Shown here piece by piece: positions 47,475 to 64,000 of a DNA stretch of 64,000 nt. Below the pieces are notes generated by a model, which worked only from the letters and a program-made list of their open reading frames with translations, ran no database searches and was not told the origin of the DNA. The stretch lies in contig JAKEHO010000043.1 in assembly GCA_022614965.1 (NCBI GenBank), forward strand, positions 10,950-74,949. Direction: 5' to 3'. Each line of letters opens with the position of its first letter. Positions within the stretch are counted from its first letter, which is position 1. Origin of the DNA: Gammaproteobacteria bacterium (GTDB lineage Bacteria; Pseudomonadota; Gammaproteobacteria; JAKEHO01). Position numbers and translations under genes: made by a program.

Positions 47475-48203
47475 TTAGAGGTGTGGCAGCTGAACGAGCG
47501 CACTCTTTAGCAGCAGCTCGCCGATGCGAAAATCCTCCGGCCCGTCACAGTCGAACCCAAAGATCGGCGGTACTTCATACGCAAGCGAGGGTTCTGCGAA
47601 CACCGTGCCTTGTTCTAATGCGGTTTTGATGCGAAATACCACCACATTGCCGAATAGAAAATGCCGCGGCTTGCTCTGCTTGTTGTATGCACTGCGGCGC
47701 TCATCGGGAAAGCAAAATGCAACCCAGCCATCCTTGATCACGCGCTGGTTATAAGCATGGTGATTATGGGGACAGGGTATGAGTGTCTGGGCAGAAGCCG
47801 CGTCTACGTTGTTATTTAGCCCCCTGACACACTGTTCAACATGCTCAGGCAAAATAAACGGGGAAGTCGGCTGAAGTAGTGCAAGTAATTCGGCTACGGC
47901 TCCTTCACGCTCTGTCACATCTTCTAGAAGTTGGACGATGACATCGAATAGTGGTATGTCATCAGCGCCAAGTTCCACCGGGCGGGGATGGTTCTCAACA
48001 CCAAGTTGGCGACAATGCATTGCAATGACATCCGAGTCGGTACTACACATCAGCCGCGAAATGCACTTTGTTGCGCGACCTGCTGCAACACAATAGTCAA
48101 TCAGGGGACGACCTGCCAGCGGTGCAAGGTTTTTCATTGGGACACTCTTTGATCCCCCACGCGCCGGCACTAAGCCCCAACACACACCGTCGAGCGTCCT
48201 CAC
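47475..48203 (-). CDS. Acylneuraminate cytidylyltransferase family (NeuA-like, copy 1)
   Basis: VPARGGSKSVPMKNL, LAGRPLI, STDS, LLQPTSPF, DCDGPED. Confidence 0.92.
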   Translation of the reverse strand: MRTLDGVCWGLVPARGGSKSVPMKNLAPLAGRPLIDYCVAAGRATKCISRLMCSTDSDVIAMHCRQLGVENHPRPVELGADDIPLFDVIVQLLEDVTEREGAVAELLALLQPTSPFILPEHVEQCVRGLNNNVDAASAQTLIPCPHNHHAYNQRVIKDGWVAFCFPDERRSAYNKQSKPRHFLFGNVVVFRIKTALEQGTVFAEPSLAYEVPPIFGFDCDGPEDFRIGELLLKSALVQLPHL

Positions 48204-49171
48204 CTCCGATCCATCTCCTTGAAATACGCAGTGGCCATGTCAATCACTCTCCTCTGGGTCTCATTCCATGCGTCCAGGCTCGAGCCACCGATGTGTGGCG
48301 TAATTAAAAGATTGTCGTGTTGACGGGCATAGTGGACCAAAGGGTGATCGGCAGGGCGAAATCTAGGCGAATATTCGTCATCCAATACATCAAGCGCAGC
48401 TCCTGCAAGACGCTTTTCTTGTAGTGCATCAAGTAAGGCCATCTCATCAATGAGTTCACCTCGTGACGTATTAATGATGATGGCACCGGGCTTACATCGG
48501 TTGATGACGTCCCGGTTTATGACGTGGCGGGTTTCCTTATTGGAGGGAGCATGAAGGGTCAGCACGTCAGAGGCAGCGATAAGATCTTCAATCGTTTCTT
48601 TGCGTTTTGGACCATCTGCTGGTGGCTCAACGTATGGGTCGTAGTAGTGCACATGCATACCGAAGGCGGCACCATACCTCGCTACCATGGACCCCAATCT
48701 CCCTAGGCCCACAATGCCGAGTGAAAGCCTCGAGAGCATGGCGGGCGCACCGAAATCAAAACGATTCCATTCACCACCGAGCACAGCTTGGAAGCCCCAT
48801 GGCGTGCGCCGAAGCAGCGCGAGCAACAATCCCCATGTATGTTCTGCCGTGGCCGTGATCGTCCGAAGAAACGCCTGCTCGTCCTTCAAAGAGAAGATTC
48901 GCATGCCGCGAGCAGCTGCCATTGGCATGTCAATATGTGGTACACCGGTGGTGTTTGTCACGATGGCCTTCAGCTTCGGACAGCGTTGCATTTTAGCTGC
49001 ATCAAAGGGATATCCAAGTGGAGCAAAGCAGAGATCAAGGTTGGCGAGTATCTCATCCGTGTCCGCGCCAGGATCCGGTAGTTGTGTCACGTTGAACTGT
49101 TTGCTCAGGACCAAGAGGTTATTGGGCATGAAGTTCAAAATCGTGTAGTAGAGCGCCCTGGGTCGCGGCAT
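48200..49171 (-). CDS. D-isomer-specific 2-hydroxyacid dehydrogenase family
   Basis: TTGVPHID, ATAEHT, GIVGLGRLG, DVLTLH, INTSRGE, AALDV, ITPHIGG. Confidence 0.9.
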   Translation of the reverse strand: MPRPRALYYTILNFMPNNLLVLSKQFNVTQLPDPGADTDEILANLDLCFAPLGYPFDAAKMQRCPKLKAIVTNTTGVPHIDMPMAAARGMRIFSLKDEQAFLRTITATAEHTWGLLLALLRRTPWGFQAVLGGEWNRFDFGAPAMLSRLSLGIVGLGRLGSMVARYGAAFGMHVHYYDPYVEPPADGPKRKETIEDLIAASDVLTLHAPSNKETRHVINRDVINRCKPGAIIINTSRGELIDEMALLDALQEKRLAGAALDVLDDEYSPRFRPADHPLVHYARQHDNLLITPHIGGSSLDAWNETQRRVIDMATAYFKEMDRR

Positions 49172-51431: not shown

Positions 51432-52802
51432 TCAAATAGCAGTGCCGCGTAGTTCACGAAAGATCGCCTCTCGCACATTTTTTCCTGCTAGTCCATCCAC
51501 GTTGCCAGTCCATTTAGTCAGCACCTCGCGCTCCTGCGGAGATAACTCCTGACCGGGTGTAATTACTCTTTCACCTAACGCGTATTGTTTCAGTTGGTCG
51601 ATGAGTTCCTTTGGTGAGCTGACGTAGTCCACAGTATCTTGAAGATCAATAATGTATGGGTACAGCCGTGGATCTAATGCTTCGTCAAACCATGGCACGA
51701 CTACTGGTTTCCTGACAGCTATCGCTTCAAGCAATGCCGTTGTATTGAATCCGCAAACTACGTCACAATCTACGATGTAGCCGAATGCGTCACTGCCAAC
51801 CACAATTTTTATATTGGTCGGCAACGCATCGACCTTCCCTAGGCTTGCTTTAAAGGCGTTTGTCTCTCTATATCGCCCTTTGACTTTGATCACGACTTTG
51901 ATGGAAGGATAGTTGCGCGCCAGCTCTACCATGGCCTGGTGGCAGTGTCGAGATAGCACTTCCCAGGAAAGGCTTGCTCTTTCCTCATCGAGGGCCTCTC
52001 CCTGTTCGTCGAAGCCAGATCGGCGCTTACGCCCGATAAATGGGAGGCCGGCCTTGGAGCCGAACGAGAGAAAGAGTACGTGACGCCGTCGAGCATCACG
52101 ACCTCCAGTTCTATACGAATGATTGGCGCGCCACTGATGCGCCCGATCGAGGCGTGGCATCCCTACAACCTGCACTTGGTATGGTAGTACTACGCCCGCT
52201 TCGATCTGCAGTTGTCGCTCAGTTTCATTATATACAAGGATCTTCCGGCCCGTGAACTGGCCACGGCGAGTCCTGTATATTTCCTTGAAAAAATCAACCC
52301 GCCCAGGACTCTTGAGATTCTCCTTATGTAGCACAATAAACGGAATTCCAAACTCTTCCAGCACTCCCGCCAACTCTCGTTCTGCGTAGTAAGCGGAATT
52401 CGCGGTGAGCACCACGTCAATATGCAACAACCTGCGAAATCTCGGCCAAACCTTTTTTAGAAACGCTCTGTAGGCAGCTTTACCCGCGTGCGCAGGTTCG
52501 GCACTTACCAGGTAATTGCAATCATCAATCTCGGGAGGCAAGAACACCGAAGCTATCGCTTTGAAGGCCTTATTGCATACAACGTCTAGGCTGTAAACCT
52601 GGAAACGCTCATCTGGACTCAGGCTTGTCATAGCATCCTGATAAAAACTTTCTTTACTCAGAAGCAAAACGCTTACACGGCAGTCGTGTTTCGAAGGTTT
52701 AACAAGCCGAACGGATAGGTAGAGCAAACCTGCAACGAGGGTACTGAACCTAAGATACGTTGCGAAAAAGAAAGCCTTCCACCAGAATTTTTGGCTCAGC
52801 AT
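51432..52802 (-). CDS. Hypothetical GT-B-like glycan biosynthesis protein
   Basis: 456 aa ORF. GIPFIVLHKE, VVGMPRLD, VIKVK, CDVVCGFNTTALLEA resemble GT-B-fold polysaccharide transferases. Confidence 0.55.
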   Translation of the reverse strand: MLSQKFWWKAFFFATYLRFSTLVAGLLYLSVRLVKPSKHDCRVSVLLLSKESFYQDAMTSLSPDERFQVYSLDVVCNKAFKAIASVFLPPEIDDCNYLVSAEPAHAGKAAYRAFLKKVWPRFRRLLHIDVVLTANSAYYAERELAGVLEEFGIPFIVLHKENLKSPGRVDFFKEIYRTRRGQFTGRKILVYNETERQLQIEAGVVLPYQVQVVGMPRLDRAHQWRANHSYRTGGRDARRRHVLFLSFGSKAGLPFIGRKRRSGFDEQGEALDEERASLSWEVLSRHCHQAMVELARNYPSIKVVIKVKGRYRETNAFKASLGKVDALPTNIKIVVGSDAFGYIVDCDVVCGFNTTALLEAIAVRKPVVVPWFDEALDPRLYPYIIDLQDTVDYVSSPKELIDQLKQYALGERVITPGQELSPQEREVLTKWTGNVDGLAGKNVREAIFRELRGTAI

Positions 52803-53343
52803 TGTGCGCGCCGGTTATGTGGGGATGATTAAAGGAGTCTTGGATGCCTTTGATGAGCCCAATTCGGTAGACGATCACCTGAAAAATACGCTCTTTCGTC
52901 TAGTCGATTAGCTCCGCTGCTCAGGCGGTGCGCCAGATATCCGGTAGGTAGGAGTAAGTATTAAGCCTAAAAATTAGGAATGGCTTACTAGGAGAATTTG
53001 CGAACCTCCACGCAGCGGCAATATCATGAACTGCACCATCATACAAAATACCCTATCTCCTCCAACCAGATAGATGTAGTGCGCGTTCCTTACTACAACA
53101 CTTGTTCCACATGGGCACAAAGAAATGTAATCAAGCCGTGCTTCCGCAGGTCAGCTAGCTGCTGTCGCGACAATTCTCGTTTGCCAATACGTTAGCTGCG
53201 ATTGCGTCTACAATACCAATGCATCAATGCCCTTCACTTTTTTAAACACAAAGTGCCATGAAGTATGACAATTCCATGTGCTTTCGTGTTAAGGCGGCAA
53301 GCAGTAAATTCCTAGGAACTACACCATTACTGTGGTCGTCAAA

Positions 53344-54858
53344 TCATCCAGCAAGTTTAGTTTTAACCGGTCGACTACTAGAATAGAACGCCGCGATCGC
53401 CTCTCCTATATTATTTACGTTTTGTTGGTAAGGAATAAGATTTATTTTCGCGGACACCTTGTCGATATAGCCTTTTACACATTTCTGCTCGAGAACCTTA
53501 GCGTAAAGCAATATCTTGTACCGATCGACATGATATCCCTCTGCAATCCGAGTCAATGCGTCGATACACGCATGCTCATTATTTGTGACGAATATGCCCT
53601 CGCAGTCACGGTACCAACTGTAACCGAATAGCATAGCCGGTATTCCACGGTTAACAGCTTCCCAGCCCACGGTCCCCGAAATCGTCGCCACCGCCTTAGC
53701 TCCGTCGATCAGCTGAAACGAATTCACTGATAGGGGAACAAGTGAAACGCCATCACGGGATGCGATATAGTCATAAAAGGCAAACGTCCTTGCCCGCTCC
53801 GCATGCTGATAGGACTTAAACTGGGACACGTGCTCCTTGACGTAAAGGCGCCAACCCTTAGGGAGATGCCTGGCGAGCAGGTCGATCATTAGATATTGAT
53901 GACCGAAAACACCACCGCTGGGGAAGGCTCGCCGTTCCGGCTCGCATTGCAGGGCAACGAAGATATACGGATGACCAAATGAAACTTCTTTAGTCAATGA
54001 CTGGTAGTACCTTCTCAAGCGCAATCTCTGGAATTTACCGATGATTCTGTAGAAGCTCTTATTTGATTCGCGTGCACCAGTGAAACCAATCAATATGGCG
54101 CGGCCAACCTCTTTTACATCAATCCAAATGGAGGAAAGAAATGCGCTTCTCGATCTGCGTGAATCCATGTGTTGCAGTTTGTATCTCAAGTGAAACGGCA
54201 GGCCCTCTGAATAATCCTTTCTCAATCCATCCAAGTAGCGGCTAGTGCTGTCCGAAAGTTCGATCTGCTTTTTCGTTTCTTTGGCATTAAGTAATACTTC
54301 GCGATATGCCGCCCTTATCTCCTCTGACCCTTTCTCGAATGATGACACTGGAAAAACAAGACCAGGAATAGCAGTCTGCTCGAACATGATCGTTGAAATA
54401 CGAAGTATGGAGCATAGGGCGTATAGGACGTAGTCGAATCCCAAGTGCGGCGGTGGTCTAAATACCACAACGTCAGGGCGGAAACGCTCAAGCACCGCCT
54501 TCCAATAACTTACCTGTGAATGGTAGGCAAACAGGCGCTTTTGATAGCTAAACGACCCATCGAAATTCAACCTGTCGAGCATCTTTAGAAAAATGGGCTC
54601 ATGAGAGGACAGGCTCGTCAGGATATTCTGGTCAAGCGGTGCCGGGCGAACATCCTTGATTTGCTTCGGTGGAATACTCCGTTTCGCCAGGGCATGCATA
54701 TGGAACACTGTATTCGGAAGCAGTTCTTGCACTTTGGCTTCCCCACCCCTATTGCCAATGACGTATTGAATCTCCCAGCCGTAACGACGCTCTAAATAGG
54801 AAGCGACTTCCACCCAAAAAGGCAGCGAACATTGAGCAAAAAAAGCTTTAGTGGTCAT
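53344..54858 (-). CDS. Capsule biosynthesis (KpsS/Capsule_synth-like) GT-B protein
   Basis: YIFVALQCEPE, LYVKEH, LIDGAKAVATISGTVGWEA. ATG 54858 follows AAAGG. Confidence 0.7.
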   Translation of the reverse strand: MTTKAFFAQCSLPFWVEVASYLERRYGWEIQYVIGNRGGEAKVQELLPNTVFHMHALAKRSIPPKQIKDVRPAPLDQNILTSLSSHEPIFLKMLDRLNFDGSFSYQKRLFAYHSQVSYWKAVLERFRPDVVVFRPPPHLGFDYVLYALCSILRISTIMFEQTAIPGLVFPVSSFEKGSEEIRAAYREVLLNAKETKKQIELSDSTSRYLDGLRKDYSEGLPFHLRYKLQHMDSRRSRSAFLSSIWIDVKEVGRAILIGFTGARESNKSFYRIIGKFQRLRLRRYYQSLTKEVSFGHPYIFVALQCEPERRAFPSGGVFGHQYLMIDLLARHLPKGWRLYVKEHVSQFKSYQHAERARTFAFYDYIASRDGVSLVPLSVNSFQLIDGAKAVATISGTVGWEAVNRGIPAMLFGYSWYRDCEGIFVTNNEHACIDALTRIAEGYHVDRYKILLYAKVLEQKCVKGYIDKVSAKINLIPYQQNVNNIGEAIAAFYSSSRPVKTKLAG

Positions 54859-54937
54859 GACGAACCTTTGGGGTAACAAATTGCCGATTACATGTATGTA
54901 GCCTTTGCCTCCAGTAGTAATGCGCCCTGGAGTTAAA

Positions 54938-55879
54938 TCAAACTGTGCTAGTGCCTGCCAATGCAGTATCGAAATCGGGCAGCATTCGATACTTTGCTAG
55001 CGCATGGCGGATAGCTACCTTTTCTTCCTCGTTGACGTCTCTATAGTAAGAGGTCGTGTATTCCTTACAGATACCCCGGAGATAAAGAATATATTTTTCC
55101 TCGGCGGCAGGAAGGAAATTGTCTTTATGTGTCCCTTTAGGCAACGCGTCGAGAAACTCGTTCAACCGAAGCTGGGCAGCCAATGCCCCTTGATGGTCGC
55201 GTGCCTGAAAAAGGTCATAGATCTCCTGCATTGGCTCTGGCAGACAGCTGGCGAGGCTACTCGTACTGCCCAGCGCCCCCATACTGAGCGTAATACAGAA
55301 TTGCTTTGCAACGGCGGTGATGACCTGGAAACCGTCGCGGGCTAGACTGATGACTGTTAAAAGGTCGGTCGTGTTGCGGTTGCTGAATTTAATTCCAGCG
55401 ATGTTTGAGTGCTCTGATAGATTTTTCACAAAGCCAGGCGTAATCGGCCGGGCCCAGTTAGCGCTGGTGTAGAGCCACAGCGGCTTAGGCGCGTAATCGG
55501 CGATGCGTCGATAGTACCAGTCCAATCGATCAAGGCTGAGCAGAAGATGGTACGGCATCACATGATAGGCATCGAACTCCAGATGCTTGGTTGCATCGAT
55601 GAACTCAAAGGTGTCATCCATGCAAAAGAACCCAGCGCCAATCGCAAGTGGCAGACGCCCCGCATTCCGTTTACAGATTGCTTCAGCCGCCTGTAGTCGC
55701 TTACGGAAGGAAAGATTCATATCTTCACTGTTGGTTCCGAGCGCCCAAAGGCCACCTACTTGGCGCTCGATCAGAAAATCGATAAGTCTTTGCTGGCCGG
55801 CCACATCGATGGAGTCATCCTCGTCCAGCGGCGTAATGACAACCGGAATGACTCCCTTGAATAGCCTACACTCTTGCAT
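54938..55879 (-). CDS. DapA/NanA-family class I aldolase
   Basis: GVIPVVITPL, LGTNSE, LWLYT, AGIKFS (Schiff-base Lys). Confidence 0.88.
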   Translation of the reverse strand: MQECRLFKGVIPVVITPLDEDDSIDVAGQQRLIDFLIERQVGGLWALGTNSEDMNLSFRKRLQAAEAICKRNAGRLPLAIGAGFFCMDDTFEFIDATKHLEFDAYHVMPYHLLLSLDRLDWYYRRIADYAPKPLWLYTSANWARPITPGFVKNLSEHSNIAGIKFSNRNTTDLLTVISLARDGFQVITAVAKQFCITLSMGALGSTSSLASCLPEPMQEIYDLFQARDHQGALAAQLRLNEFLDALPKGTHKDNFLPAAEEKYILYLRGICKEYTTSYYRDVNEEEKVAIRHALAKYRMLPDFDTALAGTSTV

Positions 55880-55884
55880 TGTCC

Positions 55885-56610
55885 TTACGCCTCTGCCTTC
55901 ACATGTCGTGCTCGATAGGTCATAAACGCTTCCGCCACAAGCAGATCAAGCTCATTGTCGACATCGACTGAATGCAGCTGGTCCATAACGAGCGGTACCT
56001 GTTTCGGCGAAATAAGTTTGCGCTCTCTGACAAAATAGTTTCTTTTCGCTGCATAGATGGATGCGTTGTATAGGTAAAAGGGCTCCCAACCAGCTGCATC
56101 CTCTCCATCGCAATAGGCTTGAAGCACTCCGTTTCGGATCCTCTTCAGATTGGGATCCCGCTTTTTAAATGGTCCTTTAACGCTTGCAAGCGTGAGGAGA
56201 TCAGATTTCCAAAGCAGATGCACTGCCTCATCAATGTGCTTCGGATCTCGAATTGGACAGCTTGGTTGCAAGAGCACAACGATGTCGTAAGGTTTGCCCG
56301 TTTGCCCCTCCATGAACTCGAGGGCATGTGCAACGGTGTCGATGTTGCGCACCTCATCCGTCGCGAGATGGGCAGGTCTCACAAACGGTGTCGCCGCGCC
56401 TTGCTTGCGGGCAAATTCCAGAATTTCCTCGTCCTCCGATGACACCAGATAATCCGTCAGCATGGTTGCTCTCTGTGCCGCCTCAATCGTGTATACCAGC
56501 ATTGGCGTGCCAAGTATTGGTTGGATATTCTTTCTTGGCAGCCTTTTGGAACCGCCGCGTGCTGGAATGACCGCTAGGGTCCGTGGCTTAATTTTGTTCT
56601 TATCGCTCAA
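55885..56610 (-). CDS. Acylneuraminate cytidylyltransferase family (NeuA-like, copy 2)
   Basis: VIPARGGSKRLPRKNI, SSEDEEI, FVRPAHLATD, LLQPSCPIR, NASIY, VDVDNELD. Confidence 0.93.
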   Translation of the reverse strand: MSDKNKIKPRTLAVIPARGGSKRLPRKNIQPILGTPMLVYTIEAAQRATMLTDYLVSSEDEEILEFARKQGAATPFVRPAHLATDEVRNIDTVAHALEFMEGQTGKPYDIVVLLQPSCPIRDPKHIDEAVHLLWKSDLLTLASVKGPFKKRDPNLKRIRNGVLQAYCDGEDAAGWEPFYLYNASIYAAKRNYFVRERKLISPKQVPLVMDQLHSVDVDNELDLLVAEAFMTYRARHVKAEA

Positions 56611-56619
56611 ACGCCAACT

Positions 56620-57633
56620 TTACTCGTTGACGCCCCGGTTCCTCCAGTGCCGCGTACCGCCGCCGGGACGGTATCTAAGCGGCTTTTTGGGGAGCAGGAA
56701 CCTGAGGCAGCTACGCAGAAATTTTACTACTCCCACTGGAAGATAAGGCTTTATCATAGACCACACAGGAATTACAAAGAGCCGCAATACAGTTGGCCAC
56801 AGTTGCCTTCGCAGCACCGCGCCAAGGATAATCGGCGTATAGGCCTTACGCCACCAGGGAACTACCGGTGATCGTAGTATGGCGCCCGCCAAGACCGTAT
56901 TCTTCTTTCGTAGGATCCCTCTTTCCCCCCTAAGTATGTTGTAGACCTCGTTCGGCCTGCGTTGCCTCTGCGATCGATCATGGATGGTCTTGCGAAGCAG
57001 AATGTGATCAACATACCGAAATCGTCCGGCCAGTGCCAACTGAACAAGTAGAAGGCGATCAAGGCCCGGAATGTCGGTGTACAAGGAAAAGGCCTGCTGC
57101 AGCACTTTGGTGCGATGTAACCCAAGGCAGTAAAAATTTTCTTTTAAAACCTTTGGATAGCCAAGAATAGATAAAGCCATTTTCAGATGACCCTTCCTTG
57201 CAGGTGAGTCGTCACCGGTAAAACGGATAGTATCGAACACTAAGCCCTGAGGACTTACCCGCTCAGTCGCACACATGGCCAGCACTGCATCAGGGTACAG
57301 CTCGAGTTCGCCGACCAGGCGGGACACAAAGTCGGGGGCCCACCAGTCGTCGGCGGCGGCCCAGGCAAAGTAACAACCCTTTGCCTTACTCAGTACCTTC
57401 TGAAAGTTCGCGGTAATGCCTACGTTTGTTTCGTTCCGGCTGTAACTAATAATTGCGTATCTTGTCATGTAATCTCGGCAGATATTCGGCGTATCGTCCG
57501 TTGATGCATTATCAGAGATCAAGATTTCAAGATTTGGATAGTCGGACTGAACTAATGAGTCGAGGCTGCGGCGTAGGGTGTTGGCACCATTTCGCACTGG
57601 CATACCTACGGTAACAAGCGGATATTTACTCAT
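56620..57633 (-). CDS. Glycosyltransferase family 2
   Basis: VTVGMPVRNG, ISDNASTD, NVGITANF, AWAAADD. Confidence 0.92.
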   Translation of the reverse strand: MSKYPLVTVGMPVRNGANTLRRSLDSLVQSDYPNLEILISDNASTDDTPNICRDYMTRYAIISYSRNETNVGITANFQKVLSKAKGCYFAWAAADDWWAPDFVSRLVGELELYPDAVLAMCATERVSPQGLVFDTIRFTGDDSPARKGHLKMALSILGYPKVLKENFYCLGLHRTKVLQQAFSLYTDIPGLDRLLLVQLALAGRFRYVDHILLRKTIHDRSQRQRRPNEVYNILRGERGILRKKNTVLAGAILRSPVVPWWRKAYTPIILGAVLRRQLWPTVLRLFVIPVWSMIKPYLPVGVVKFLRSCLRFLLPKKPLRYRPGGGTRHWRNRGVNE

Positions 57634-57770
57634 CGCACGCGTCAATCAGCTATGTCAAGCTAACCATTGTTCGCAATGCGCTTCAAATAGCCACCGGGCC
57701 AGTTAGTGACTGGTTCAGCGACGACCGTTCCTACAATAAAAGAGAAAACAGGCTGCTCGCGAAGGCGATC

Positions 57771-58550
57771 CTATTCATTTTGCTCTGGAAGGCGTCGTAG
57801 CCAAGCACCAGTCCAATGAGTTACGTTTTCAGTGAGCGCGCTCTCGTTGAACGGCCATGGTGGTTGCTCGGGCACGAACTCCGGATGCGCCCGCGCGAAC
57901 TCAACCGCCGCCGCTGCGGGGTTGTCGGTCGCCCAGTCGGGCGCGCCCCGGGGCACGTCGTGGAGGTCGCGCATCACTCCGTCTGTGGCGACGATATAGG
58001 ATCCGGGAGTTACCAGGCTGCAGTACGCCTCGAGTTCAGCGAGCACATAGCTCTTGGTGTGGTTGGAGTCGAGCAACACCATCACCTTTTCACCTTCCCT
58101 AATTAACGCTTTCGCACGCGTTATAACATCCGGATCGATGGAACTACCTTCGATCAGAGTGATCAGCGGCGCTAGCGTGTGCGATTTGATTGCTTTTCGG
58201 TTACGCGGCCTTATCTCGATGTCGATTCCGATCACGCGGCCCTTGCCTAGCGCTCTGGCAAGACTCGCGTAGAGTATGAGCGAGCCGCCGTGGGCAACTC
58301 CCGTTTCCACGATCACGTCCGGCCCTACTCGATGGATCACCTCTTGCACCCGTACGATGTCCTCTGGTAGCTGGATGATGGGGCGACCCATCCAGCTGAA
58401 TGTGTACTGGTATTTCTCGTTCCAGCCGACTCTCACCCACTGGCGAGCGATGAGCTCGAAGGCCGGGCGAGAGTAGAGCTCCAGGGTCCGCGAGCGCCCT
58501 GCTTCTTCAACAACGAGGGTACGCGCTGTGGTGTCAATGGTGAGCTTCAT
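57771..58550 (-). CDS. CmcI/cephalosporin hydroxylase family (rhamnosyl O-methyltransferase-like)
   Basis: YTFSWMGRPIIQLPED, IVETGVAHGGS, VIGIDI, LDSNHT, YIVATDG. Confidence 0.9.
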   Translation of the reverse strand: MKLTIDTTARTLVVEEAGRSRTLELYSRPAFELIARQWVRVGWNEKYQYTFSWMGRPIIQLPEDIVRVQEVIHRVGPDVIVETGVAHGGSLILYASLARALGKGRVIGIDIEIRPRNRKAIKSHTLAPLITLIEGSSIDPDVITRAKALIREGEKVMVLLDSNHTKSYVLAELEAYCSLVTPGSYIVATDGVMRDLHDVPRGAPDWATDNPAAAAVEFARAHPEFVPEQPPWPFNESALTENVTHWTGAWLRRLPEQNE

Positions 58551-58551
58551 G

Positions 58552-59715
58552 TCAGGCAAGCTCGACCAAGTTTGCCTCAATGCCGGACGTGCGTAGCAGC
58601 GCGGCATTCTCCTCGCGGTAGTTGGGATTCATGAGTATCACGTTCCGCACGCCACGGACGGTAAGCTCTTCGTGTGACACGATCGGGTGACCGCTGCCCG
58701 GCACGAACTTTCCCTGTTTCGCGGGATTGAGGTCCACGATGCAGTCAATCAACCTGGCGTCCGGATCGACGAGATTGGCAAAGGTTGCACCCTTTGCTCC
58801 GGCGCCCCAAAGGGCGACTTGCCCAGTGCGCTCAAGCTTGCGCAAAGCGTCACTCCAGCGCGTCGCTTGTCGGACCTCAGACTCAGCGAAGGTGTCGGCG
58901 AGCTCAGGAACCGCCCCCACTGCCCACCCCGGCTCTTGCATTCCCGATGCGATCTTGGCTTCGAGCCACAGGTACTGGCCGCCGAACAGGGTGCGCACGG
59001 CGACAACATGAAAGCCAGCAGCACGAAACGCTGCGGCGAGCGAGTGTGCCGAGAACAGCGAGCAGTGCTCGTAAAAAAAGTCCCAGATTACCCGGTTCCT
59101 GAGAATCCACTCAACGCACGGTGTCTCGAAATAGACGCGCGCTGCCGTGCAGTGGGCGAGCACTTGGCGAACTGATTGCAACAACTCGAGCGGCTGCGCG
59201 ACATGCTCTATCACGTGCCGGCAAACGACGACTTCGGCCCCGCCGACTGCGCTGCCCGGCCCAAACAACTCACGGCGGAACGTGAGGCGGCCGCCGCAAA
59301 CGCTGTCCGGGCCAGTGTAACTCGGGTCGAAGCCGATGCCGCAATTCTCGGCACCCGGATATGCAACGAGCCGGCGCAAGAAACCACCCTTGCCACAGCC
59401 CACCTCGACCACGAGACTCGCGCGCACACCTTCGTCGAGCACGAGGTGGCGCACGAGATCGTCGAGATAAGCAGCGAAAACAGGGGAGCAATCCTGAGTG
59501 TTGTCGTAGTCCTTACCGTAAGAAAGTTGGTCCTCGCGGAAGGCTGCATTAAAGATAAACCCGCAGGTGCCACAGACCGCCATCTCGAGCGCGCCGCGCG
59601 ACACGGTGCGCGCGGACGAACGTTCCTCGCAGAGCAGGTTCTGATGCACCGGGACGTTGGGGCGGCGCAGAAACACCCGAACCTCGCAGTTGCTGCAGAG
59701 GGGGCAAGAGGACAT
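58552..59715 (-). CDS. NDP-hexose C-methyltransferase-like class I SAM enzyme (copy 2)
   Basis: N-terminal CPLC...CGTC zinc site, EVGCGKG, RHVIEH, FYEH, LWGAGAKG, VDLNPAKQGKF. Confidence 0.88.
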   Translation of the reverse strand: MSSCPLCSNCEVRVFLRRPNVPVHQNLLCEERSSARTVSRGALEMAVCGTCGFIFNAAFREDQLSYGKDYDNTQDCSPVFAAYLDDLVRHLVLDEGVRASLVVEVGCGKGGFLRRLVAYPGAENCGIGFDPSYTGPDSVCGGRLTFRRELFGPGSAVGGAEVVVCRHVIEHVAQPLELLQSVRQVLAHCTAARVYFETPCVEWILRNRVIWDFFYEHCSLFSAHSLAAAFRAAGFHVVAVRTLFGGQYLWLEAKIASGMQEPGWAVGAVPELADTFAESEVRQATRWSDALRKLERTGQVALWGAGAKGATFANLVDPDARLIDCIVDLNPAKQGKFVPGSGHPIVSHEELTVRGVRNVILMNPNYREENAALLRTSGIEANLVELA

Positions 59716-59734
59716 CAGCAGGGCGTATAGGTTC

Positions 59735-60481
59735 TCAGAGCGCGCAATACGAGACGTAGGAGTCGAGTGGGAAGCGCTCGATCTGCAGGTTGTGCAATCC
59801 GAGCACCTCATCGACGGCCAGCGTCTCACCAGGAAACATCTTTGCATTGAGTTCGTCGAAAACGATGATTGACCCCTTCGGCATTCGGGACACGAAGGTC
59901 TGTAGCGCTGCCACAGTAGGCTCGTAGAGGTCCACGTCGAGGTAGAGCATCGCAACCACGAGATGAGGGTTGGCCTTCAGGTATTCGGGGGCGGTGACGC
60001 ATACATCGCCCTTCACCAACTCCACCTTCTGGATGTGCGCAATCGGCCGGTTCAGATTGTAAAGCTTGACTGCCCGCTCTACATCCTCCAGTGTGGAGCC
60101 TGCAAGCCCGCCAGCGGTAAGATGCGCTGAATCACTGGTTGTGGCATCCTTCCCGCTCACCGAGGGAAACCCGCTAAAGGTGTCGAAGCCGATGATCTTG
60201 CGTACATGGTTCGCCGGCTCAAGCAGTGACGAGAGCTTGGCGAACGTTAGCAGCCCGGCTCCGTGCAACACGCCGCACTCCACTATTGAGCCGTTGACGT
60301 ACAGGATCTTCTTGAAAATCTCATAGCGGGCCAGGAACTTGCCGATTGCCTGGCGCGAAGCAAACTTGGGAAAGGCGTCGATCTTTTCGGCAACTGTACC
60401 TGCCGCAGACTTGAAAACTTCTGCCATTAGCTCGAACTGCGCGCTGTCGGCAGTGGACTGGTTCTTCGGTTCCCTGATCAT
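59735..60481 (-). CDS. TylF/MycF/NovP-related O-methyltransferase
   Basis: GSIVECGV, IIGFDTFSGFP, LVKGD, LYLDVDLYEPT, IVFDE. Confidence 0.85.
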   Translation of the reverse strand: MIREPKNQSTADSAQFELMAEVFKSAAGTVAEKIDAFPKFASRQAIGKFLARYEIFKKILYVNGSIVECGVLHGAGLLTFAKLSSLLEPANHVRKIIGFDTFSGFPSVSGKDATTSDSAHLTAGGLAGSTLEDVERAVKLYNLNRPIAHIQKVELVKGDVCVTAPEYLKANPHLVVAMLYLDVDLYEPTVAALQTFVSRMPKGSIIVFDELNAKMFPGETLAVDEVLGLHNLQIERFPLDSYVSYCAL

Positions 60482-60494
60482 AGCGGGATCCCCC

Positions 60495-61226
60495 TTAAAG
60501 CCTTATGACTCCGCCCATTTTGGGGTCCAGCGGTAACCCTAAGGACGTATAGCGTGGTTGCACCGAATAGCGGATGCCATCGGATATGTTTAGATTGGAA
60601 GAGTGGAGAAGCAGTGCAGAAAACAATAGGGCGTCCCCCTTCTCCATCTTCACCATCCTAATTTCGCTATCGAAGATGTTTGAGGGAATACTTTTCTTAC
60701 CGATTACCAAATCGTGTTCGATAGCTCCTAGCTTATGCGATCCGGGCATAACACTGAGGCATCCTTTTGCAAATGGCGTATCCTGCAATGGAACCCAGAC
60801 CGTGACCACATCGGTATTTCCTCGCACATAAAAGTAGTCTTGGTGCCAGTGTGCAAGCTCCCGGGTCCACAGCGGCAAATCAATGCGGAACGGAATTTTT
60901 TGTAGCAGCCCACATGTGTCATCCAGCAAATGCCTCACGGGTAGAACGAGCCCAGGTTGCTGCGAAAACTCTTCGAGCCAGCGAGACTCTCTTATCTTAA
61001 CGTACACCTCTGATTCAAGATCCGGGCGGGTGTTGAAAAGGTCAATGATTGGCACGCCAAACGGTTCACCGAATGCTTGACCAGTCACTTTCTTAACAAG
61101 GTCAAGATAACGTTCCAATAGGTGGTCGATGACGCTGTGAGGCACGGCACCGCGAAGAAGTGTGAAGCCCTTGTCCCGATAGTCAGAAATCCAGGAGACC
61201 GCCTCAGGCGGAACGTTCACAGTCAC
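60495..61226 (-). CDS. Phytanoyl-CoA dioxygenase (PhyH) family Fe(II)/2-oxoglutarate oxygenase
   Basis: YRDKGF, HWHQD, VTVWVPLQD, GCLSVMPGSH, GDALLF...LLHSS..N, RYS. Start uncertain (GTG 61226 or 61220). Confidence 0.88.
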   Translation of the reverse strand: MTVNVPPEAVSWISDYRDKGFTLLRGAVPHSVIDHLLERYLDLVKKVTGQAFGEPFGVPIIDLFNTRPDLESEVYVKIRESRWLEEFSQQPGLVLPVRHLLDDTCGLLQKIPFRIDLPLWTRELAHWHQDYFYVRGNTDVVTVWVPLQDTPFAKGCLSVMPGSHKLGAIEHDLVIGKKSIPSNIFDSEIRMVKMEKGDALLFSALLLHSSNLNISDGIRYSVQPRYTSLGLPLDPKMGGVIRL

Positions 61227-62118
61227 CTTTCCACCAGTTGAGAACTTCCGAGATTCCGTCTGCAAGCGAGATTGCCGGACGCCAACCGACTTCGTTTGCA
61301 AGTCGACTAACGTCGGCCACGAGTCGAGGCGGATCGTTGGGAGAGGGCGCAATCGCTCCAAAGCGCAACAAGTCACGACGCCCGACGCGCTCGGCGAGAG
61401 CAACCGCGAAATCCTTGACTTTCACGGGGACCCCGGATGCAACGTTGATCGGTCCGCTAATATCGGAATCAAGCAGCGCACAAAAGGCATCTGCCACGTC
61501 GCGAACGTGCATGAAATCACATTCCTGCTCCCCATGGGTACAGGCTGCCGGCTCGCCGCGCAGTAGCGCGCGCGCTACTGATGGAACCAGCCGCTGAGGT
61601 TTCTCGTACGGGCCGTAAACGTAAAAGATCCGCCCCCAGGCGCTGCTCAGCCCGGTTGCGCCAGAGTAAGCCGCGAGTAGCACCTGGAGTGCGTGTTTGC
61701 AAATGCCGTAGACACTGCTCGGTCGTACCGGGGTCGCCTGCTCATCACAGATTTCGCGGCTCCAACTATACTCAGCACACGAGCCGGCCAAGACGGCGCG
61801 CCAGCCCCCATGCTTGTGGAAAGTCTGCACCAAGTCGAGACTCGCGCTGACCCACCGAAAATTTTCGGGCGAGTGCCAATATTTTCCAGGCTCTGCGTAC
61901 CACGCGAAATGCAATAAATGGCTTGGTCTTACAGCGCCAAGCAAGTCCTTGGTCTGGGATGAGTCCAGTAAGTTACCGCAGTGCCATTGGACGTTTGGGT
62001 ACTGTTGACCGATGGCCTTTGAAGTGACGGCATGCACCTCGTAATTGCGAGCCAACAATGCTGATAGACTATGGCGTCCGACGAAACCGGTCGCCCCAGT
62101 AACCAGTACCCTTTTCAT
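61204..62118 (-). CDS. NAD-dependent epimerase/dehydratase (likely NDP-4-keto sugar reductase)
   Basis: VLVTGATGFVG, LHFAWY, AGSCAEY, YGICK, WGRIFYVYGP. Confidence 0.9.
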   Translation of the reverse strand: MKRVLVTGATGFVGRHSLSALLARNYEVHAVTSKAIGQQYPNVQWHCGNLLDSSQTKDLLGAVRPSHLLHFAWYAEPGKYWHSPENFRWVSASLDLVQTFHKHGGWRAVLAGSCAEYSWSREICDEQATPVRPSSVYGICKHALQVLLAAYSGATGLSSAWGRIFYVYGPYEKPQRLVPSVARALLRGEPAACTHGEQECDFMHVRDVADAFCALLDSDISGPINVASGVPVKVKDFAVALAERVGRRDLLRFGAIAPSPNDPPRLVADVSRLANEVGWRPAISLADGISEVLNWWKGDCERSA

Positions 62119-62645
62119 CAGATAAAATCCGGATACTGCGCGTCCTCGGAGGAAATGCTGGGCTGGTCGATTGGCCACCGAATCCCAAACATCGGATCAT
62201 TCCACCGGACTCCACAAGCAAGTTCAGGATGATAGAACTCTGACATTTGATAAAAGATCTCCACGTTATTTTCCAGCGTTTGAAAACCGTGGGCGAAACC
62301 TTTAGGAATGTAGAGCATTCTCCGATTCTCCGCCGTTAGCTCAGTGGCGAACCACCTTTTATATGTGCTTGAATGAGCACGAAGGTCAATGATGACGTCG
62401 TAAATTGCCCCCCTTACGCACCTTACCAATTTCGCCTCCTCTCGAGGCTTTTCTTGATAGTGCATACCACGCAAGGTCCCCTTTTTTTTATTGAAAGAAA
62501 TATTGCATTGCGCTATGTTCAGAGTCAGACCATGTGCTTCGAATTCATTCTTACAATATGTGCGCGCGAAAAACCCACGCTCATCCTCGAGGCGCTCCGG
62601 TTCGATGATGAAAGCTCCCGGGAGTTTCGTATCCGTGAAGATCAA
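62118..62645 (-). CDS. rfbC: NDP-4-keto-6-deoxyhexose 3,5-epimerase
   Basis: DERGFFART, GTLRGMHYQ, KLVRCVRGAIYDV, PKGFAHGFQT, WNDP. Confidence 0.95.
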   Translation of the reverse strand: MIFTDTKLPGAFIIEPERLEDERGFFARTYCKNEFEAHGLTLNIAQCNISFNKKKGTLRGMHYQEKPREEAKLVRCVRGAIYDVIIDLRAHSSTYKRWFATELTAENRRMLYIPKGFAHGFQTLENNVEIFYQMSEFYHPELACGVRWNDPMFGIRWPIDQPSISSEDAQYPDFI

Positions 62646-63955
62646 TTCATTACCTCAACGGTTGGAATCGGCACCACAAACCTTCCGCCCCATTCACGGA
62701 TATAACCTATCGTTTTTACAATCTCATCCTTAATATTCCAAGGAAGAATCAGTACAAAGTCTGGCCTTGCATCCAAAATCTTTTCCGGGTGATAGACAGG
62801 GATATGGGTTCCAGGCAAATACAACCCTTGCTTGTGCGGGTTACGATCCGCAGCGAAGTCGATGAAATCCTTTCCAATCCCACAATAGTTTAAAAGCGTA
62901 TTCCCTTTTGCCGCAGCGCCATAAGCGACAACCCGCCTACTATTGCGTTTTGCCTCGACAAAAAAGCTCAGCAGATCGAGCTTTGCCTGTTTAACCTTAT
63001 CTGCAAACCCGGCGTAGGTGACGATCTGGTCCATACTGGCTTTTCGCTCATTTTGCCGTAACCGGCCGACCTGGGTCGTTTCTACCTTCGCCTCATTATC
63101 GGCATGTGCAACATAAAGACGCAGAGAACCGCCATGAGTCGGTAGCTCCCTAACATCAAAGATTTTTAGTTTATGCCTGGCAAAGACACGCTCCGCGGCG
63201 CCAAAAGAAAAGTACGAGAAATGCTCATGGTAGATGGTATCGAACTGGGTCTGGTTGATCAGGTTCAATAAGTGAGGAAACTCCACGGAAATAACGCCAC
63301 CCGATTTGAGCAGCCGTGTCATTCCGGTAACAAAATCGTTCAAGTCCGGTACGTGCGCCAGTACATTGTTGGCAACGATAAGATCCGCTTGCTTGCCTCC
63401 TTCCGCCAAGTCCCGAGCTAACGCTTCCCCAAAAAACGCCACCTTGCTCGGAATGCCCTTGGTAATCGCTACCCGCGCCACATTAGCGGCGGGCTCGATA
63501 CCAAGCACCGGGATACCTTTCTCGACGAAATACTGCAGCAGGTAACCGTCATTACTCGCGATTTCGACCACCAGGGAATCCGAATCTAATCCCAGCTGCG
63601 GGATGATTTCCTCCACGTAATCGCGGGCATGGGCAAGCCAGGTATCCGAGAAAGAGGAAAAGTAGACATAGTTGGAAAACATGTCCTCCGGCGCGTTGTA
63701 TTGCTCCAGCTGCACCAAGAAGCATCTCCCACAAACGAAGGCATGTAGAGGATAATAAATCTCGGGATTGTTCAGTTGCTCCGCGGTTAACAGCGAATTG
63801 GCTAGAGGCATTGCGCCCAGATCGAGAAAACTGATGATAAGAGGTTCTCCACATCCACGGCACGTTCTTCGGTCCCTGCCACCACCGCGCGATCGGATAT
63901 TTTCTTCGCTATGCAGCGGCTGGGACTGGCCGCCAGGCTCACTCTGCTCAGGCAT
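62642..63955 (-). CDS. NDP-hexose 3-C-methyltransferase-like class I SAM enzyme (copy 1)
   Basis: CRGC...DLGAMPLAN...CGRCFLVQL, YVYFSS, VEIASNDGYLL, NVLAHVPD, FDTIYHEH, THGGSLR, YGAAAKGNT, LILPWN. Confidence 0.93.
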   Translation of the reverse strand: MPEQSEPGGQSQPLHSEENIRSRGGGRDRRTCRGCGEPLIISFLDLGAMPLANSLLTAEQLNNPEIYYPLHAFVCGRCFLVQLEQYNAPEDMFSNYVYFSSFSDTWLAHARDYVEEIIPQLGLDSDSLVVEIASNDGYLLQYFVEKGIPVLGIEPAANVARVAITKGIPSKVAFFGEALARDLAEGGKQADLIVANNVLAHVPDLNDFVTGMTRLLKSGGVISVEFPHLLNLINQTQFDTIYHEHFSYFSFGAAERVFARHKLKIFDVRELPTHGGSLRLYVAHADNEAKVETTQVGRLRQNERKASMDQIVTYAGFADKVKQAKLDLLSFFVEAKRNSRRVVAYGAAAKGNTLLNYCGIGKDFIDFAADRNPHKQGLYLPGTHIPVYHPEKILDARPDFVLILPWNIKDEIVKTIGYIREWGGRFVVPIPTVEVMN

Positions 63956-63998
63956 CGGTCGATAGATATTGCTCAATTTGATTTAATGTCAGCTTGCG
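63948..63998 (-). CDS. C-terminal 16 residues of an upstream gene, probably CDP-glucose 4,6-dehydratase (5' end outside window)
   Basis: RKLTLNQIEQYLSTDA* resembles RfbG C-termini and fits the usual rfbG / C-methyltransferase / rfbC order. Too short to be sure. Confidence 0.45.
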   Translation of the reverse strand, partial: RKLTLNQIEQYLSTDA

Positions 63999-64000
63999 GG

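What the first reader, a model, noticed from the sequence alone, without database searches (positions are those of the whole stretch)
53344..57633. Second CMP-ulosonate route built on a class I aldolase instead of a PEP synthase
Seen: GT2, a second CMP-transferase, a DapA/NanA-family aldolase and a KpsS-like GT form a contiguous block, separate from the neuB module. The aldolase keeps the Schiff-base Lys and Tyr but has GTNSE instead of GTTGE/GSTGE. Known: NanA/KDG-type aldolases condense pyruvate with aldoses to give 3-deoxy-2-ulosonic acids, NeuA/KdsB enzymes activate such acids with CMP, and KpsS transfers Kdo from CMP-Kdo. Inference: a biosynthetic pyruvate-aldolase to CMP-activation to transfer pathway for a different ulosonic acid. 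I know of no characterised example, but have not searched.
Basis: partly seen in the sequence, partly recalled or inferred. Interest (0 to 1): 0.62.

Follow-up and report, generated by a model that had tools for sequence, protein, structure and literature searches.

The report
Aldolase add-on to NeuB sugar-acid pathway
The four genes are real and form a conserved cassette (sugar-acid activating enzyme, NanA/DapA-type aldolase, KpsC-like transferase), but the cassette does not replace the usual PEP-dependent NeuB synthase: a dedicated NeuB gene lies 15 kb upstream just outside the window, so the aldolase is most likely an undescribed tailoring step in an uncharacterised surface sugar-acid pathway.

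Summary
Observation confirmed. GT2, a PseF-like CMP-transferase (CT2), a DHDPS/NanA-family aldolase (Lys164, Tyr137, GTNSE) and a KpsC/KpsS-like transferase are contiguous and co-oriented.

CT2, aldolase and transferase form a co-inherited cassette found in about 45 loci from many phyla. However, a specific NeuB clade ("NeuB2") accompanies the aldolase in 40 of 41 assessable genomes. It usually comes with a KdsC-like phosphatase, an SDR, an aldehyde dehydrogenase and an atypical transketolase. In this genome NeuB2 lies 14.8 kb upstream on the same strand, just beyond the window end.

Three relatives' aldolase-bearing contigs hold one NeuB2 and one NeuA-like CMP-transferase, the one beside the aldolase; in one of them these are the only such genes in the genome. 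NeuB2-type modules also exist without the aldolase, with a different CMP-transferase clade. The aldolase is therefore an add-on, not the synthase.

Best reading (inferred): it remodels the free NeuB2-made keto-deoxy acid, for example by retro-aldol C4 inversion, before a dedicated CMP-transferase pulls the product forward. No chemistry is shown, and I found no paper describing the module.

This scan reached the same conclusion earlier on other DNA (e1-4193986). It is a new variant of a known kind, of moderate interest.

The parts
56620..57645 (-). GT2-family glycosyltransferase (probable start ATG at 57633). A frequent neighbour of the cassette, not a core part.
   Evidence: Pfam Glycos_transf_2 2.4e-26. 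Homologues lie near the aldolase in 13-16 of 45 loci.
55885..56610 (-). CT2: NeuA/PseF-like CMP-ulosonate synthetase of the clade that always flanks the aldolase.
   Evidence: CTP_transf_3 2e-19. PseF 125 bits, below cut-off. Adjacent to the aldolase in about 40 of 45 loci. The aldolase-adjacent copies form one clade of 38 rows, SH-aLRT 99.
54938..55879 (-). Class I (Schiff-base) pyruvate aldolase of the NAL/DHDPS superfamily, in an undescribed subfamily (GT[G/N]SEDMN, Tyr110, Tyr137, Lys164).
   Evidence: PF00701 4.9e-29. Below every NCBIfam cut-off. 456 relatives found, the closest at about 55-87% identity. Invariant catalytic residues. AlphaFold model pLDDT 90.4, with best folds YagE, 4xky, NAL and DHDPS at TM 0.83-0.86.
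53344..54879 (-). 511-aa KpsC/KpsS-like (Capsule_synth) putative CMP-ulosonate-dependent glycosyltransferase.
   Evidence: Capsule_synth 4.5e-4, borderline. Family profile hits KpsC 6mgb at E=3.1e-11. Family members are within the cluster in 30 loci, typically just downstream of the aldolase.
57771..64000 (-). Intervening co-oriented CDP/dTDP-deoxysugar tailoring genes. They physically link the cassette to the rest of its pathway beyond the window end: glucose-1-P cytidylyltransferase, transketolase-like, aldehyde dehydrogenase, SDR, KdsC-like phosphatase and NeuB2, at G000:C41:75958-82640 (= L046 1009-7691).
   Evidence: Pfam on window genes. Off-window genes. The same order is seen in relative G006 (L047 plus L041).

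Best explanation
CT2, the aldolase and the KpsC-like transferase are the downstream cassette of a NeuB-dependent pathway for a CMP-activated, non-amino keto-deoxy sugar acid (Kdn/Kdo-like). NeuB2, often with a KdsC-type phosphatase, builds the acid from PEP and an aldose or aldose phosphate. SDR, aldehyde dehydrogenase and an atypical transketolase are accessory tailoring enzymes in most versions. The aldolase is an optional add-on. It acts on a free 2-oxo-acid intermediate, because a Schiff base needs the free C2 keto group, so it must act before CMP activation. Most likely it remodels the NeuB2 product by reversible retro-aldol and aldol chemistry, for example C4 inversion or exchange of the aldehyde part. 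The product is then captured irreversibly by the co-evolved CT2 and transferred by the 511-aa KpsC-like enzyme.

Shown: gene identities, cassette conservation, and obligatory co-occurrence with NeuB2.

Inferred: the order of steps and the chemistry.
For: The CT2 clade is tied to the aldolase (38 rows, SH-aLRT 99). The trio is conserved.

A NeuB2 clade (38 rows, SH-aLRT 99) is present with the aldolase in 40 of 41 assessable genomes.

In this genome one co-oriented gene array runs from NeuB2 to the 511-aa gene.

G006 has one NeuB and one NeuA-like CMP-transferase in the whole genome. The G005 and G007 contigs show the same 1:1 pairing.

Aldolase-less sister modules (NeuB2-like, SDR, Aldedh, transketolase-like, CT', Capsule_synth-like) are nested inside the NeuB2 clade. 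Their CT' groups with the second CMP-transferase of two-CT clusters.

The minimal unit NeuB-cupin-CT2-aldolase-462 aa in L040 lacks the transketolase, SDR and Aldedh. The aldolase's partners are therefore NeuB and CT2.

The catalytic Thr49-Tyr110-Tyr137-Lys164 set is intact.
Against: No chemistry is shown, and the product and the aldolase's substrate are unknown.

This genome's array holds two CMP-transferases (CT3 and CT2) for one NeuB2. Locally, therefore, an independent aldolase route cannot be excluded.

Most carriers are MAGs, so counts of 'only one CMP-transferase' could be affected by incompleteness.

C4 inversion by a NAL-family enzyme in a biosynthetic pathway has no precedent that I could find.
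Confidence: 0.55

Rival explanations
1. First reader's reading. The cassette is a self-sufficient route: the aldolase condenses pyruvate with an aldose to make a distinct ulosonic acid, CT2 activates it (pulling the unfavourable equilibrium), and the 511-aa enzyme transfers it. NeuB2 serves another sugar.
For: The cassette is physically detachable: 15 kb from NeuB2 here and in L039, L041 and L043. It has its own CMP-transferase clade and transferase. Two-CT clusters exist (L006, L025), and this genome has four NeuA-like CMP-transferases for three NeuB genes.
Against: The aldolase is almost never found without a NeuB2-clade gene (40 of 41). Many clusters and at least one whole genome have a single NeuA-like CMP-transferase, which would leave a conserved NeuB2 module without an activating enzyme. 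In L040, NeuB and the aldolase sit in one five-gene unit.
Confidence: 0.13
2. The aldolase makes a 4-hydroxy-2-oxo acid that the atypical transketolase-like ThDP enzyme decarboxylates and grafts onto a carbonyl of the sugar. This is the ErwI/ErwE logic of acyl-branched sugars.
For: A pyruvate aldolase plus ThDP enzyme pair is a published route to branched sugars (PMC9306805). The transketolase-like protein has lost all four sugar-phosphate-binding residues but keeps the cofactor and catalytic residues, in 29 of 29 homologues. Earlier notes report other aldolase families recruited to the same pathway.
Against: The aldolase occurs without the transketolase-like gene nearby (L001, L006, L040). 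The transketolase-like gene occurs without the aldolase (L060-L062). The aldolase's fixed neighbour is the CMP-transferase, not the ThDP enzyme.
Confidence: 0.13
3. The aldolase is a lyase acting as a safety valve. It degrades excess or wrong free ulosonic acid to keep the pool low, as NanA does for sialic acid homeostasis.
For: The NAL family normally runs in the cleavage direction. A homeostatic role for a lyase is described for human NPL (PMC13220900, abstract listed).
Against: There is tight, cross-phylum adjacency with a dedicated CMP-transferase clade and transferase. No transporter, kinase or epimerase genes of a catabolic nan operon are adjacent.
Confidence: 0.08
4. It is the housekeeping DHDPS (DapA) or a catabolic Neu5Ac lyase that happens to lie in the cluster.
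For: Best NCBIfam hit is dapA (91.3 bits).
Against: That score is far below the dapA cut-off of 206. A true dapA (349.8 bits) is on another contig. The NanA models score 49.5-75.7 bits against cut-offs of 281-382. The residues aligned with the NanA sugar-binding Asp-Glu are Ala-Lys and are not conserved.
Confidence: 0.02

Closest known systems
CMP-Kdn pathway of Bacteroides thetaiotaomicron and Prymnesium parvum (Kdn-9-P synthase BT1714, KdsC-family Kdn-9-P phosphatase, CMP-Kdn synthetase; PMC6200933)
   Same: A NeuB-family PEP-dependent synthase next to a KdsC-type phosphatase (NCBIfam KdsC 114 bits, Kdn-9-P phosphatase 91.7 bits) and a NeuA-like CMP-transferase. No aminotransferase, so the product is a non-amino keto-deoxy acid.
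   Different: Extra SDR, aldehyde dehydrogenase, phosphate-blind transketolase-like enzyme and, in this subclade, a NAL/DHDPS-type aldolase with its own CMP-transferase clade. All models score below their cut-offs, and the product is unknown.
N-acetylneuraminate lyase NanA and KDG/KDGal aldolases (YagE) of the NAL/DHDPS superfamily
   Same: TIM-barrel fold (TM 0.83-0.86). Schiff-base Lys, catalytic Tyr and the Thr/Tyr relay are present.
   Different: The second carboxylate-binding Thr/Ser is Gly or Asn (GT[G/N]SE). The NanA Asp-Glu sugar-binding pair is absent. The context is biosynthetic with a CMP-transferase, not a catabolic operon.
KpsC/KpsS retaining beta-Kdo transferases (GT107; PDB 6mgb, 8fux)
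   Same: Profile similarity over the C-terminal CMP-binding region, with a conserved His (EH versus HP) and G-[FW]-E. Pfam Capsule_synth.
   Different: Only about 85 residues align. The protein is 511 aa with an unrelated N-terminal half. Donor, acceptor and stereochemistry are unknown.
Kdo8N pathway of Shewanella (KdnB oxidase, KdnA aminotransferase acting on free Kdo before KdsB). Cited from my own knowledge, not checked here.
   Same: The logic of tailoring a free ulosonic acid before CMP activation.
   Different: Different enzyme families, and no aldolase.
Erwiniose/caryophyllose acyl-branched sugar route (ErwI aldolase plus ErwE ThDP enzyme; PMC9306805)
   Same: A pyruvate aldolase and a ThDP enzyme in a surface-glycan cluster next to CDP-deoxysugar genes.
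   Different: ErwI is a BphI-type (class II) aldolase and ErwE is a YerE homologue. Here the aldolase is class I, the ThDP enzyme is transketolase-like, and the aldolase's fixed partner is a CMP-transferase.

Membership tests
NAL/DHDPS superfamily (PF00701) | Pfam model above the gathering score, and a (beta/alpha)8 barrel with a C-terminal helical domain | tested here: met
   101.4 bits against a cut-off of 22.1. AlphaFold pLDDT 90.4. Foldseek TM 0.83-0.86 to YagE, NanA and DHDPS.
NAL/DHDPS superfamily (PF00701) | Schiff-base Lys and catalytic Tyr, plus the Thr/Ser-Tyr proton relay | tested here: met
   Lys164 and Tyr137 align with those of NanA 4n4p. Thr49, Tyr110, Tyr137 and Lys164 are invariant in 26 members.
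DapA (4-hydroxy-tetrahydrodipicolinate synthase, TIGR00674) | Score above the equivalog cut-off, and the only or housekeeping copy | tested here: not met
   91.3 bits against a cut-off of 206.15. A 349.8-bit dapA lies on contig C117.
NanA (N-acetylneuraminate lyase, TIGR00683 / PRK04147) | Score above cut-off, G-x-D-E sugar-binding residues, and a catabolic nan context | tested here: not met
   49.5 and 75.7 bits against cut-offs of 382 and 281. The aligned positions are Ala191-Lys192 and are variable. Neighbours are biosynthetic.
CMP-ulosonate synthetases (PF02348; NeuA/PseF/LegF/KdsB) | Pfam model above cut-off, and pairing with a NeuB-family synthase | tested here: met
   CT2 scores 70.7 bits against 22.6. 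PseF is the nearest model but is below its cut-off. A NeuB2-clade gene is in the same cluster or genome in 40 of 41 carriers. Activity and substrate were not tested.
KpsC/KpsS beta-Kdo transferases (PF05159, GT107) | Capsule_synth model and a conserved CMP-binding His / GxE region | tested here: inconclusive
   20.2 bits at a cut-off of 20. The family profile hits KpsC at E=3.1e-11, but over about 85 residues only. His350 and Glu407 are invariant.
Nonulosonic/ulosonic acid biosynthesis (NAB-type) cluster | A PEP-dependent NeuB-family synthase dedicated to the pathway | tested here: met
   NeuB2 is at L046 6636-7691 (PF03102, 245 bits), 14.8 kb upstream on the same strand. It belongs to a clade of 38 rows with support 99.
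Canonical transketolase (for the off-window partner gene) | Sugar-phosphate-binding Arg318, Ser345, His416 and Arg474 (human numbering; their roles are from my own knowledge) | tested here: not met
   They are replaced by Val/Ile, Asp, Leu and Ser, while His37, His77, His110 and Glu366 are kept (alignment). The replacements are conserved in 29 homologues.

The most novel reading that the evidence does not exclude
A NanA/DapA-type class I aldolase has been recruited into biosynthesis. It reversibly opens the C3-C4 bond of a NeuB-made keto-deoxy sugar acid and re-closes it (C4 inversion or aldehyde swap). A co-evolved CMP-transferase encoded 5 nt upstream traps only the new isomer. This would give bacteria a cassette (CMP-transferase, aldolase, KpsC-like transferase) that diversifies surface sugar acids without a new synthase.
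Probability: 0.3. Interest if true: 0.65.

Novelty: new variant of a known kind. Interest (0 to 1): 0.42.

Why it matters
Sialic-acid-like and Kdo-like sugars shape how bacterial surfaces are recognised. All known routes to them use PEP-dependent synthases and then go straight to CMP activation.

This locus shows a cross-phylum, uncharacterised elaboration of that scheme, found in Pseudomonadota, Thermodesulfobacteriota, Myxococcota, Nitrospinota, Planctomycetota and others. A NAL-family aldolase, known so far for catabolism and lysine synthesis, is hard-wired to a CMP-transferase.

Working out its reaction would add a new enzymatic step to ulosonic-acid biosynthesis and a useful biocatalyst pair.

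The negative result matters too. 'NeuB-less' calls made from a single window are unsafe, because the cognate NeuB lay just past the window edge.

Tried and rejected
1. True DapA or NanA: rejected.

2. 'The aldolase subfamily occurs where neuB is lacking': tested in three ways and rejected.
- tblastn of 45 loci.
- Whole-genome NeuB and CMP-transferase searches in 15 further carrier genomes, plus this genome.
- Extension of contigs.
The only NeuB2-less carrier (L017) has a transposase inside the cluster and no adjacent CMP-transferase.

3. A sample of 201 genomes of the family that holds G003: the aldolase is in 2 and NeuB2-like genes are in 6. The two with at least 65% identity are the aldolase carriers.

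4. My first greedy ORF caller mis-called genes in GC-rich loci. I replaced it with tblastn.

5. Literature searches for the module, for ulosaric/heptulosaric acid biosynthesis and for the 4xky protein found nothing relevant.

6. The terminator and promoter scan around the block was no better than shuffled sequence.

7. The 476-aa gene upstream of NeuB2 could not be tied convincingly to the KpsC-like family (hhalign probability 69%, over 57 columns only).

8. CT3 is not of the CT' clade, so this genome's extra CMP-transferase stays unexplained.

9. Fold search did not place the aldolase nearer to any one characterised subfamily.


Full report
**1. What is in the window**

On the minus strand lie four nearly abutting ORFs:
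- GT2, 56620-57645.
- A 241-aa cytidylyltransferase, CT2, 55885-56610.
- A 313-aa aldolase, 54938-55879.
- A 511-aa protein, 53344-54879.

The gaps between them are 9, 5 and 58 nt.

Pfam gives Glycos_transf_2, CTP_transf_3, DHDPS and a borderline Capsule_synth. NCBIfam puts CT2 nearest to PseF and the aldolase nearest to DapA and NanA. Every one of these hits is far below its curated cut-off.

The aldolase reads LGTNSEDMN. Its Tyr137 and Lys164 align with the catalytic Tyr and Schiff-base Lys of a solved NanA.

Downstream, after a 541-nt gap, comes a separate module:
- A 456-aa putative NulO transferase.
- NeuB1.
- NeuC.
- A 2-hydroxyacid dehydrogenase.
- CT1.
- An SqdB-like gene.

**2. The aldolase subfamily**

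A search of the large protein collection found 456 relatives. The closest are about 55-87% identical and are almost all from metagenomes. In 26 members Thr49, Tyr110, Tyr137, Lys164 and Ser208 are invariant. The motif consensus is GTGSEDMN, so GTNSE is a minority form.

The AlphaFold model is confident (pLDDT 90.4). It superposes equally well on YagE, the B. thetaiotaomicron protein 4xky, NanA and DHDPS (TM 0.83-0.86).

It is not the housekeeping DapA. A 349.8-bit dapA lies on another contig.

The residues aligned with the NanA sugar-binding Asp-Glu pair are Ala-Lys and vary within the subfamily. It is a catalytically intact class I aldolase of unknown substrate.

**3. Neighbourhood**

I examined 42 loci from species-representative genomes, three metagenome contigs and the window.

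- tblastn shows a CT2-type gene directly beside the aldolase in about 40 of 45 loci.
- A roughly 520-aa relative of the 511-aa protein lies within the cluster in 30 loci, typically just downstream of the aldolase.
- A profile of 24 of these proteins hits KpsC beta-Kdo transferases at E=3.1e-11 over the nucleotide-binding region.
- In a tree of all NeuA-like proteins in these loci, the aldolase-adjacent copies form one clade of 38 rows (SH-aLRT 99).

The trio of CMP-transferase, aldolase and transferase is a real, co-inherited cassette.

**4.

NeuB homologues lie within 10 kb of the aldolase in 28 of 45 loci.

For ten carriers without one in that range, whole-genome searches found NeuB in every genome. 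In eight of them the copy later shown to be NeuB2-type lies 11-21 kb upstream on the same contig and strand. In the ninth (L021) it is on a different contig. The tenth (L017) has no NeuB2-type copy at all.

Five more carriers each hold a copy 51-65% identical to this genome's off-window NeuB. Several of these copies sit at contig ends.

In this genome the window is C41:10950-74949. Just beyond its end, on the same strand, lie the following:
- Glucose-1-P cytidylyltransferase.
- A transketolase-like gene.
- An aldehyde dehydrogenase (alpha-ketoglutarate-semialdehyde-dehydrogenase-like).
- An SDR.
- A KdsC-like phosphatase.
- NeuB2 (C41:81585-82640).

NeuB2 is 14.8 kb upstream of the aldolase. 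The window's deoxysugar genes fill the space between them.

These aldolase-linked NeuB proteins form one clade of 38 rows (support 99). The window's NeuB1 is excluded from it.

Tally: 40 of 41 assessable carriers have a NeuB2-clade gene. The exception (L017) has a DDE transposase inside the cluster and no adjacent CMP-transferase.

**5. Which enzyme does CT2 serve?**

Whole-genome counts are informative.
- G006 is a Chromatiales MAG whose cluster is syntenic with this one. It has one NeuB, one KdsB and one NeuA-like CMP-transferase, and that last one is the copy beside the aldolase.
- The aldolase contigs of G005 and G007 likewise carry one NeuB2-type gene and one CT2.

If the aldolase were an independent synthase feeding CT2, the conserved NeuB2 module in these genomes would have no activating enzyme.

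This genome is ambiguous. It has three NeuB genes and four NeuA-like CMP-transferases, and a divergent CT3 lies 5 kb upstream of NeuB2.

**6. The aldolase is an add-on**

I sampled 201 genomes of the family that holds carrier G003.
- Two carry the aldolase. The same two have NeuB2 at 65-66% identity.
- Four others have NeuB2-like genes at 57-59% identity with no aldolase.

Three of these four loci (L060-L062) contain a CMP-transferase of a different clade (CT'), a transketolase-like gene, a 560-aa Capsule_synth-like protein, NeuB, SDR and aldehyde dehydrogenase. Only L060 also shows a KdsC-like gene. The fourth (L063) has only NeuB, SDR and a CT'.

Their NeuB proteins nest inside the NeuB2 clade. 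Their CT' groups with the second CMP-transferase of clusters that hold two (L006, L025).

Conversely, a marine single-cell genome (L040) has a translationally coupled five-gene unit of NeuB, cupin, CT2, aldolase and a 462-aa protein. It has no transketolase-like gene, SDR or aldehyde dehydrogenase.

The constant partners of the aldolase are therefore NeuB2 and CT2.

**7. Mechanism (inferred)**

A Schiff-base aldolase needs a free C2 keto group. It must therefore act on a free 2-oxo acid, that is, before CMP activation.

The aldolase comes and goes on a conserved NeuB2 backbone and always brings its own CMP-transferase and transferase. The simplest reading is that it converts the NeuB2-made acid, or a late intermediate, into a variant acid that only CT2 accepts.

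Retro-aldol and aldol chemistry could invert C4 or exchange the aldehyde part. Irreversible cytidylylation by the gene 5 nt upstream would pull the otherwise unfavourable equilibrium. I give this 0.55.

Rivals:
- Supply of a 4-hydroxy-2-oxo acid to the ThDP enzyme, as ErwI does for ErwE in acyl-branched sugars (PMC9306805), 0.13.
- A homeostatic lyase, 0.08.
- DapA or NanA proper, 0.02.

**8. The transketolase-like partner**

This gene is off-window. Aligned with human transketolase, it keeps the cofactor and catalytic residues. The four sugar-phosphate-binding residues and Asp424 are replaced: R318V/I, S345D, H416L, R474S and D424P. The roles of these residues are from my own knowledge. The replacements are conserved in 29 homologues.

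It is therefore not a pentose-phosphate transketolase and probably acts on non-phosphorylated keto acids or aldehydes.

**9. Comparison with known systems**

The backbone resembles the CMP-Kdn pathway: a NeuB-type Kdn-9-P synthase, a KdsC-family phosphatase and a CMP-Kdn synthetase (PMC6200933). All of its models score below their cut-offs, and the SDR, aldehyde dehydrogenase, transketolase-like enzyme and aldolase are extra.

I found no paper describing the module.

The scan reached the same conclusion on other DNA (e1-4193986). It has also seen other aldolase families attached to the same pathway.

**10. Verdict**

'Instead of a PEP synthase' is not supported.

What remains is an uncharacterised, cross-phylum variant of NeuB-dependent ulosonic-acid biosynthesis, in which a NAL-family aldolase is welded to a CMP-transferase. 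It is of moderate interest, and no chemistry has been shown.

Noticed in passing
L046 1839-3749 (= G000:C41:76788-78698, off-window, minus strand): A transketolase-like ThDP enzyme. All four sugar-phosphate-binding residues and Asp424 are replaced (V/I, D, L, S, P), conserved in 29 homologues. It is probably a carboligase or decarboxylase for non-phosphorylated substrates.
   Followed up: partly
window 51432-52802 (-): A 456-aa protein with only weak hits to the BFO_1060 and TIGR04396 'surface carbohydrate biosynthesis' families, directly upstream of NeuB1-NeuC. It is a likely transferase for the NeuB1 product.
   Followed up: no
window 48200-49171 (-): A D-2-hydroxyacid dehydrogenase wedged between NeuC and CT1. 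The same arrangement occurs in L005, and a homologue occurs in L001. Its role in the NeuB1 module is unexplained.
   Followed up: no
window 52803-53343: A 541-nt non-coding gap of lower G+C between the 511-aa gene and the next module. No convincing terminator or promoter beyond chance.
   Followed up: partly
L046 12815-13753 (off-window, minus strand): CT3, a 312-aa NeuA-like protein with a roughly 50-aa N-terminal extension. It belongs neither to the CT2 clade nor to the CT' clade. It makes four NeuA-like genes for three NeuB genes in this genome.
   Followed up: partly
L060-L063 (genomes G049, G116, G155, G151): Aldolase-less sister modules. L060-L062 carry CT', a transketolase-like gene, a 560-aa Capsule_synth-like gene, NeuB, SDR and aldehyde dehydrogenase; L063 has only NeuB, SDR and a CT'. 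In L060, four ORFs with no Pfam match follow.
   Followed up: partly
L040 7805-12276: A compact, translationally coupled unit of NeuB, a 145-aa cupin, CT2, the aldolase and a 462-aa protein, in a marine alphaproteobacterial single-cell genome. It sits next to a complete legionaminic-acid-type module.
   Followed up: partly
L017 7023-8201: A DDE transposase inserted between the SDR and the aldehyde dehydrogenase of the pathway in a complete Terriglobia chromosome. This is the only carrier without a NeuB2-type gene or an adjacent CMP-transferase, so it is probably a decaying cluster.
   Followed up: partly
PDB 4xky (B. thetaiotaomicron 'DHDPS'): The closest solved sequence (E=5e-26). It shares the subfamily's C-terminal L-x-L-x-G-I-C motif, and in the alignment it has Thr-His-Thr-Lys after the catalytic Tyr-Asn-Met-Pro. 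It may not be a true DapA.
   Followed up: no
L001 5278-6874; L004, L007, L019 and L028 downstream genes: A pyruvate-kinase-like barrel plus an APS kinase (L001), and several sulfotransferases in other carriers, lie in the same clusters. Together with the SqdB-like gene in this window, this hints that the glycans are sulfated.
   Followed up: no
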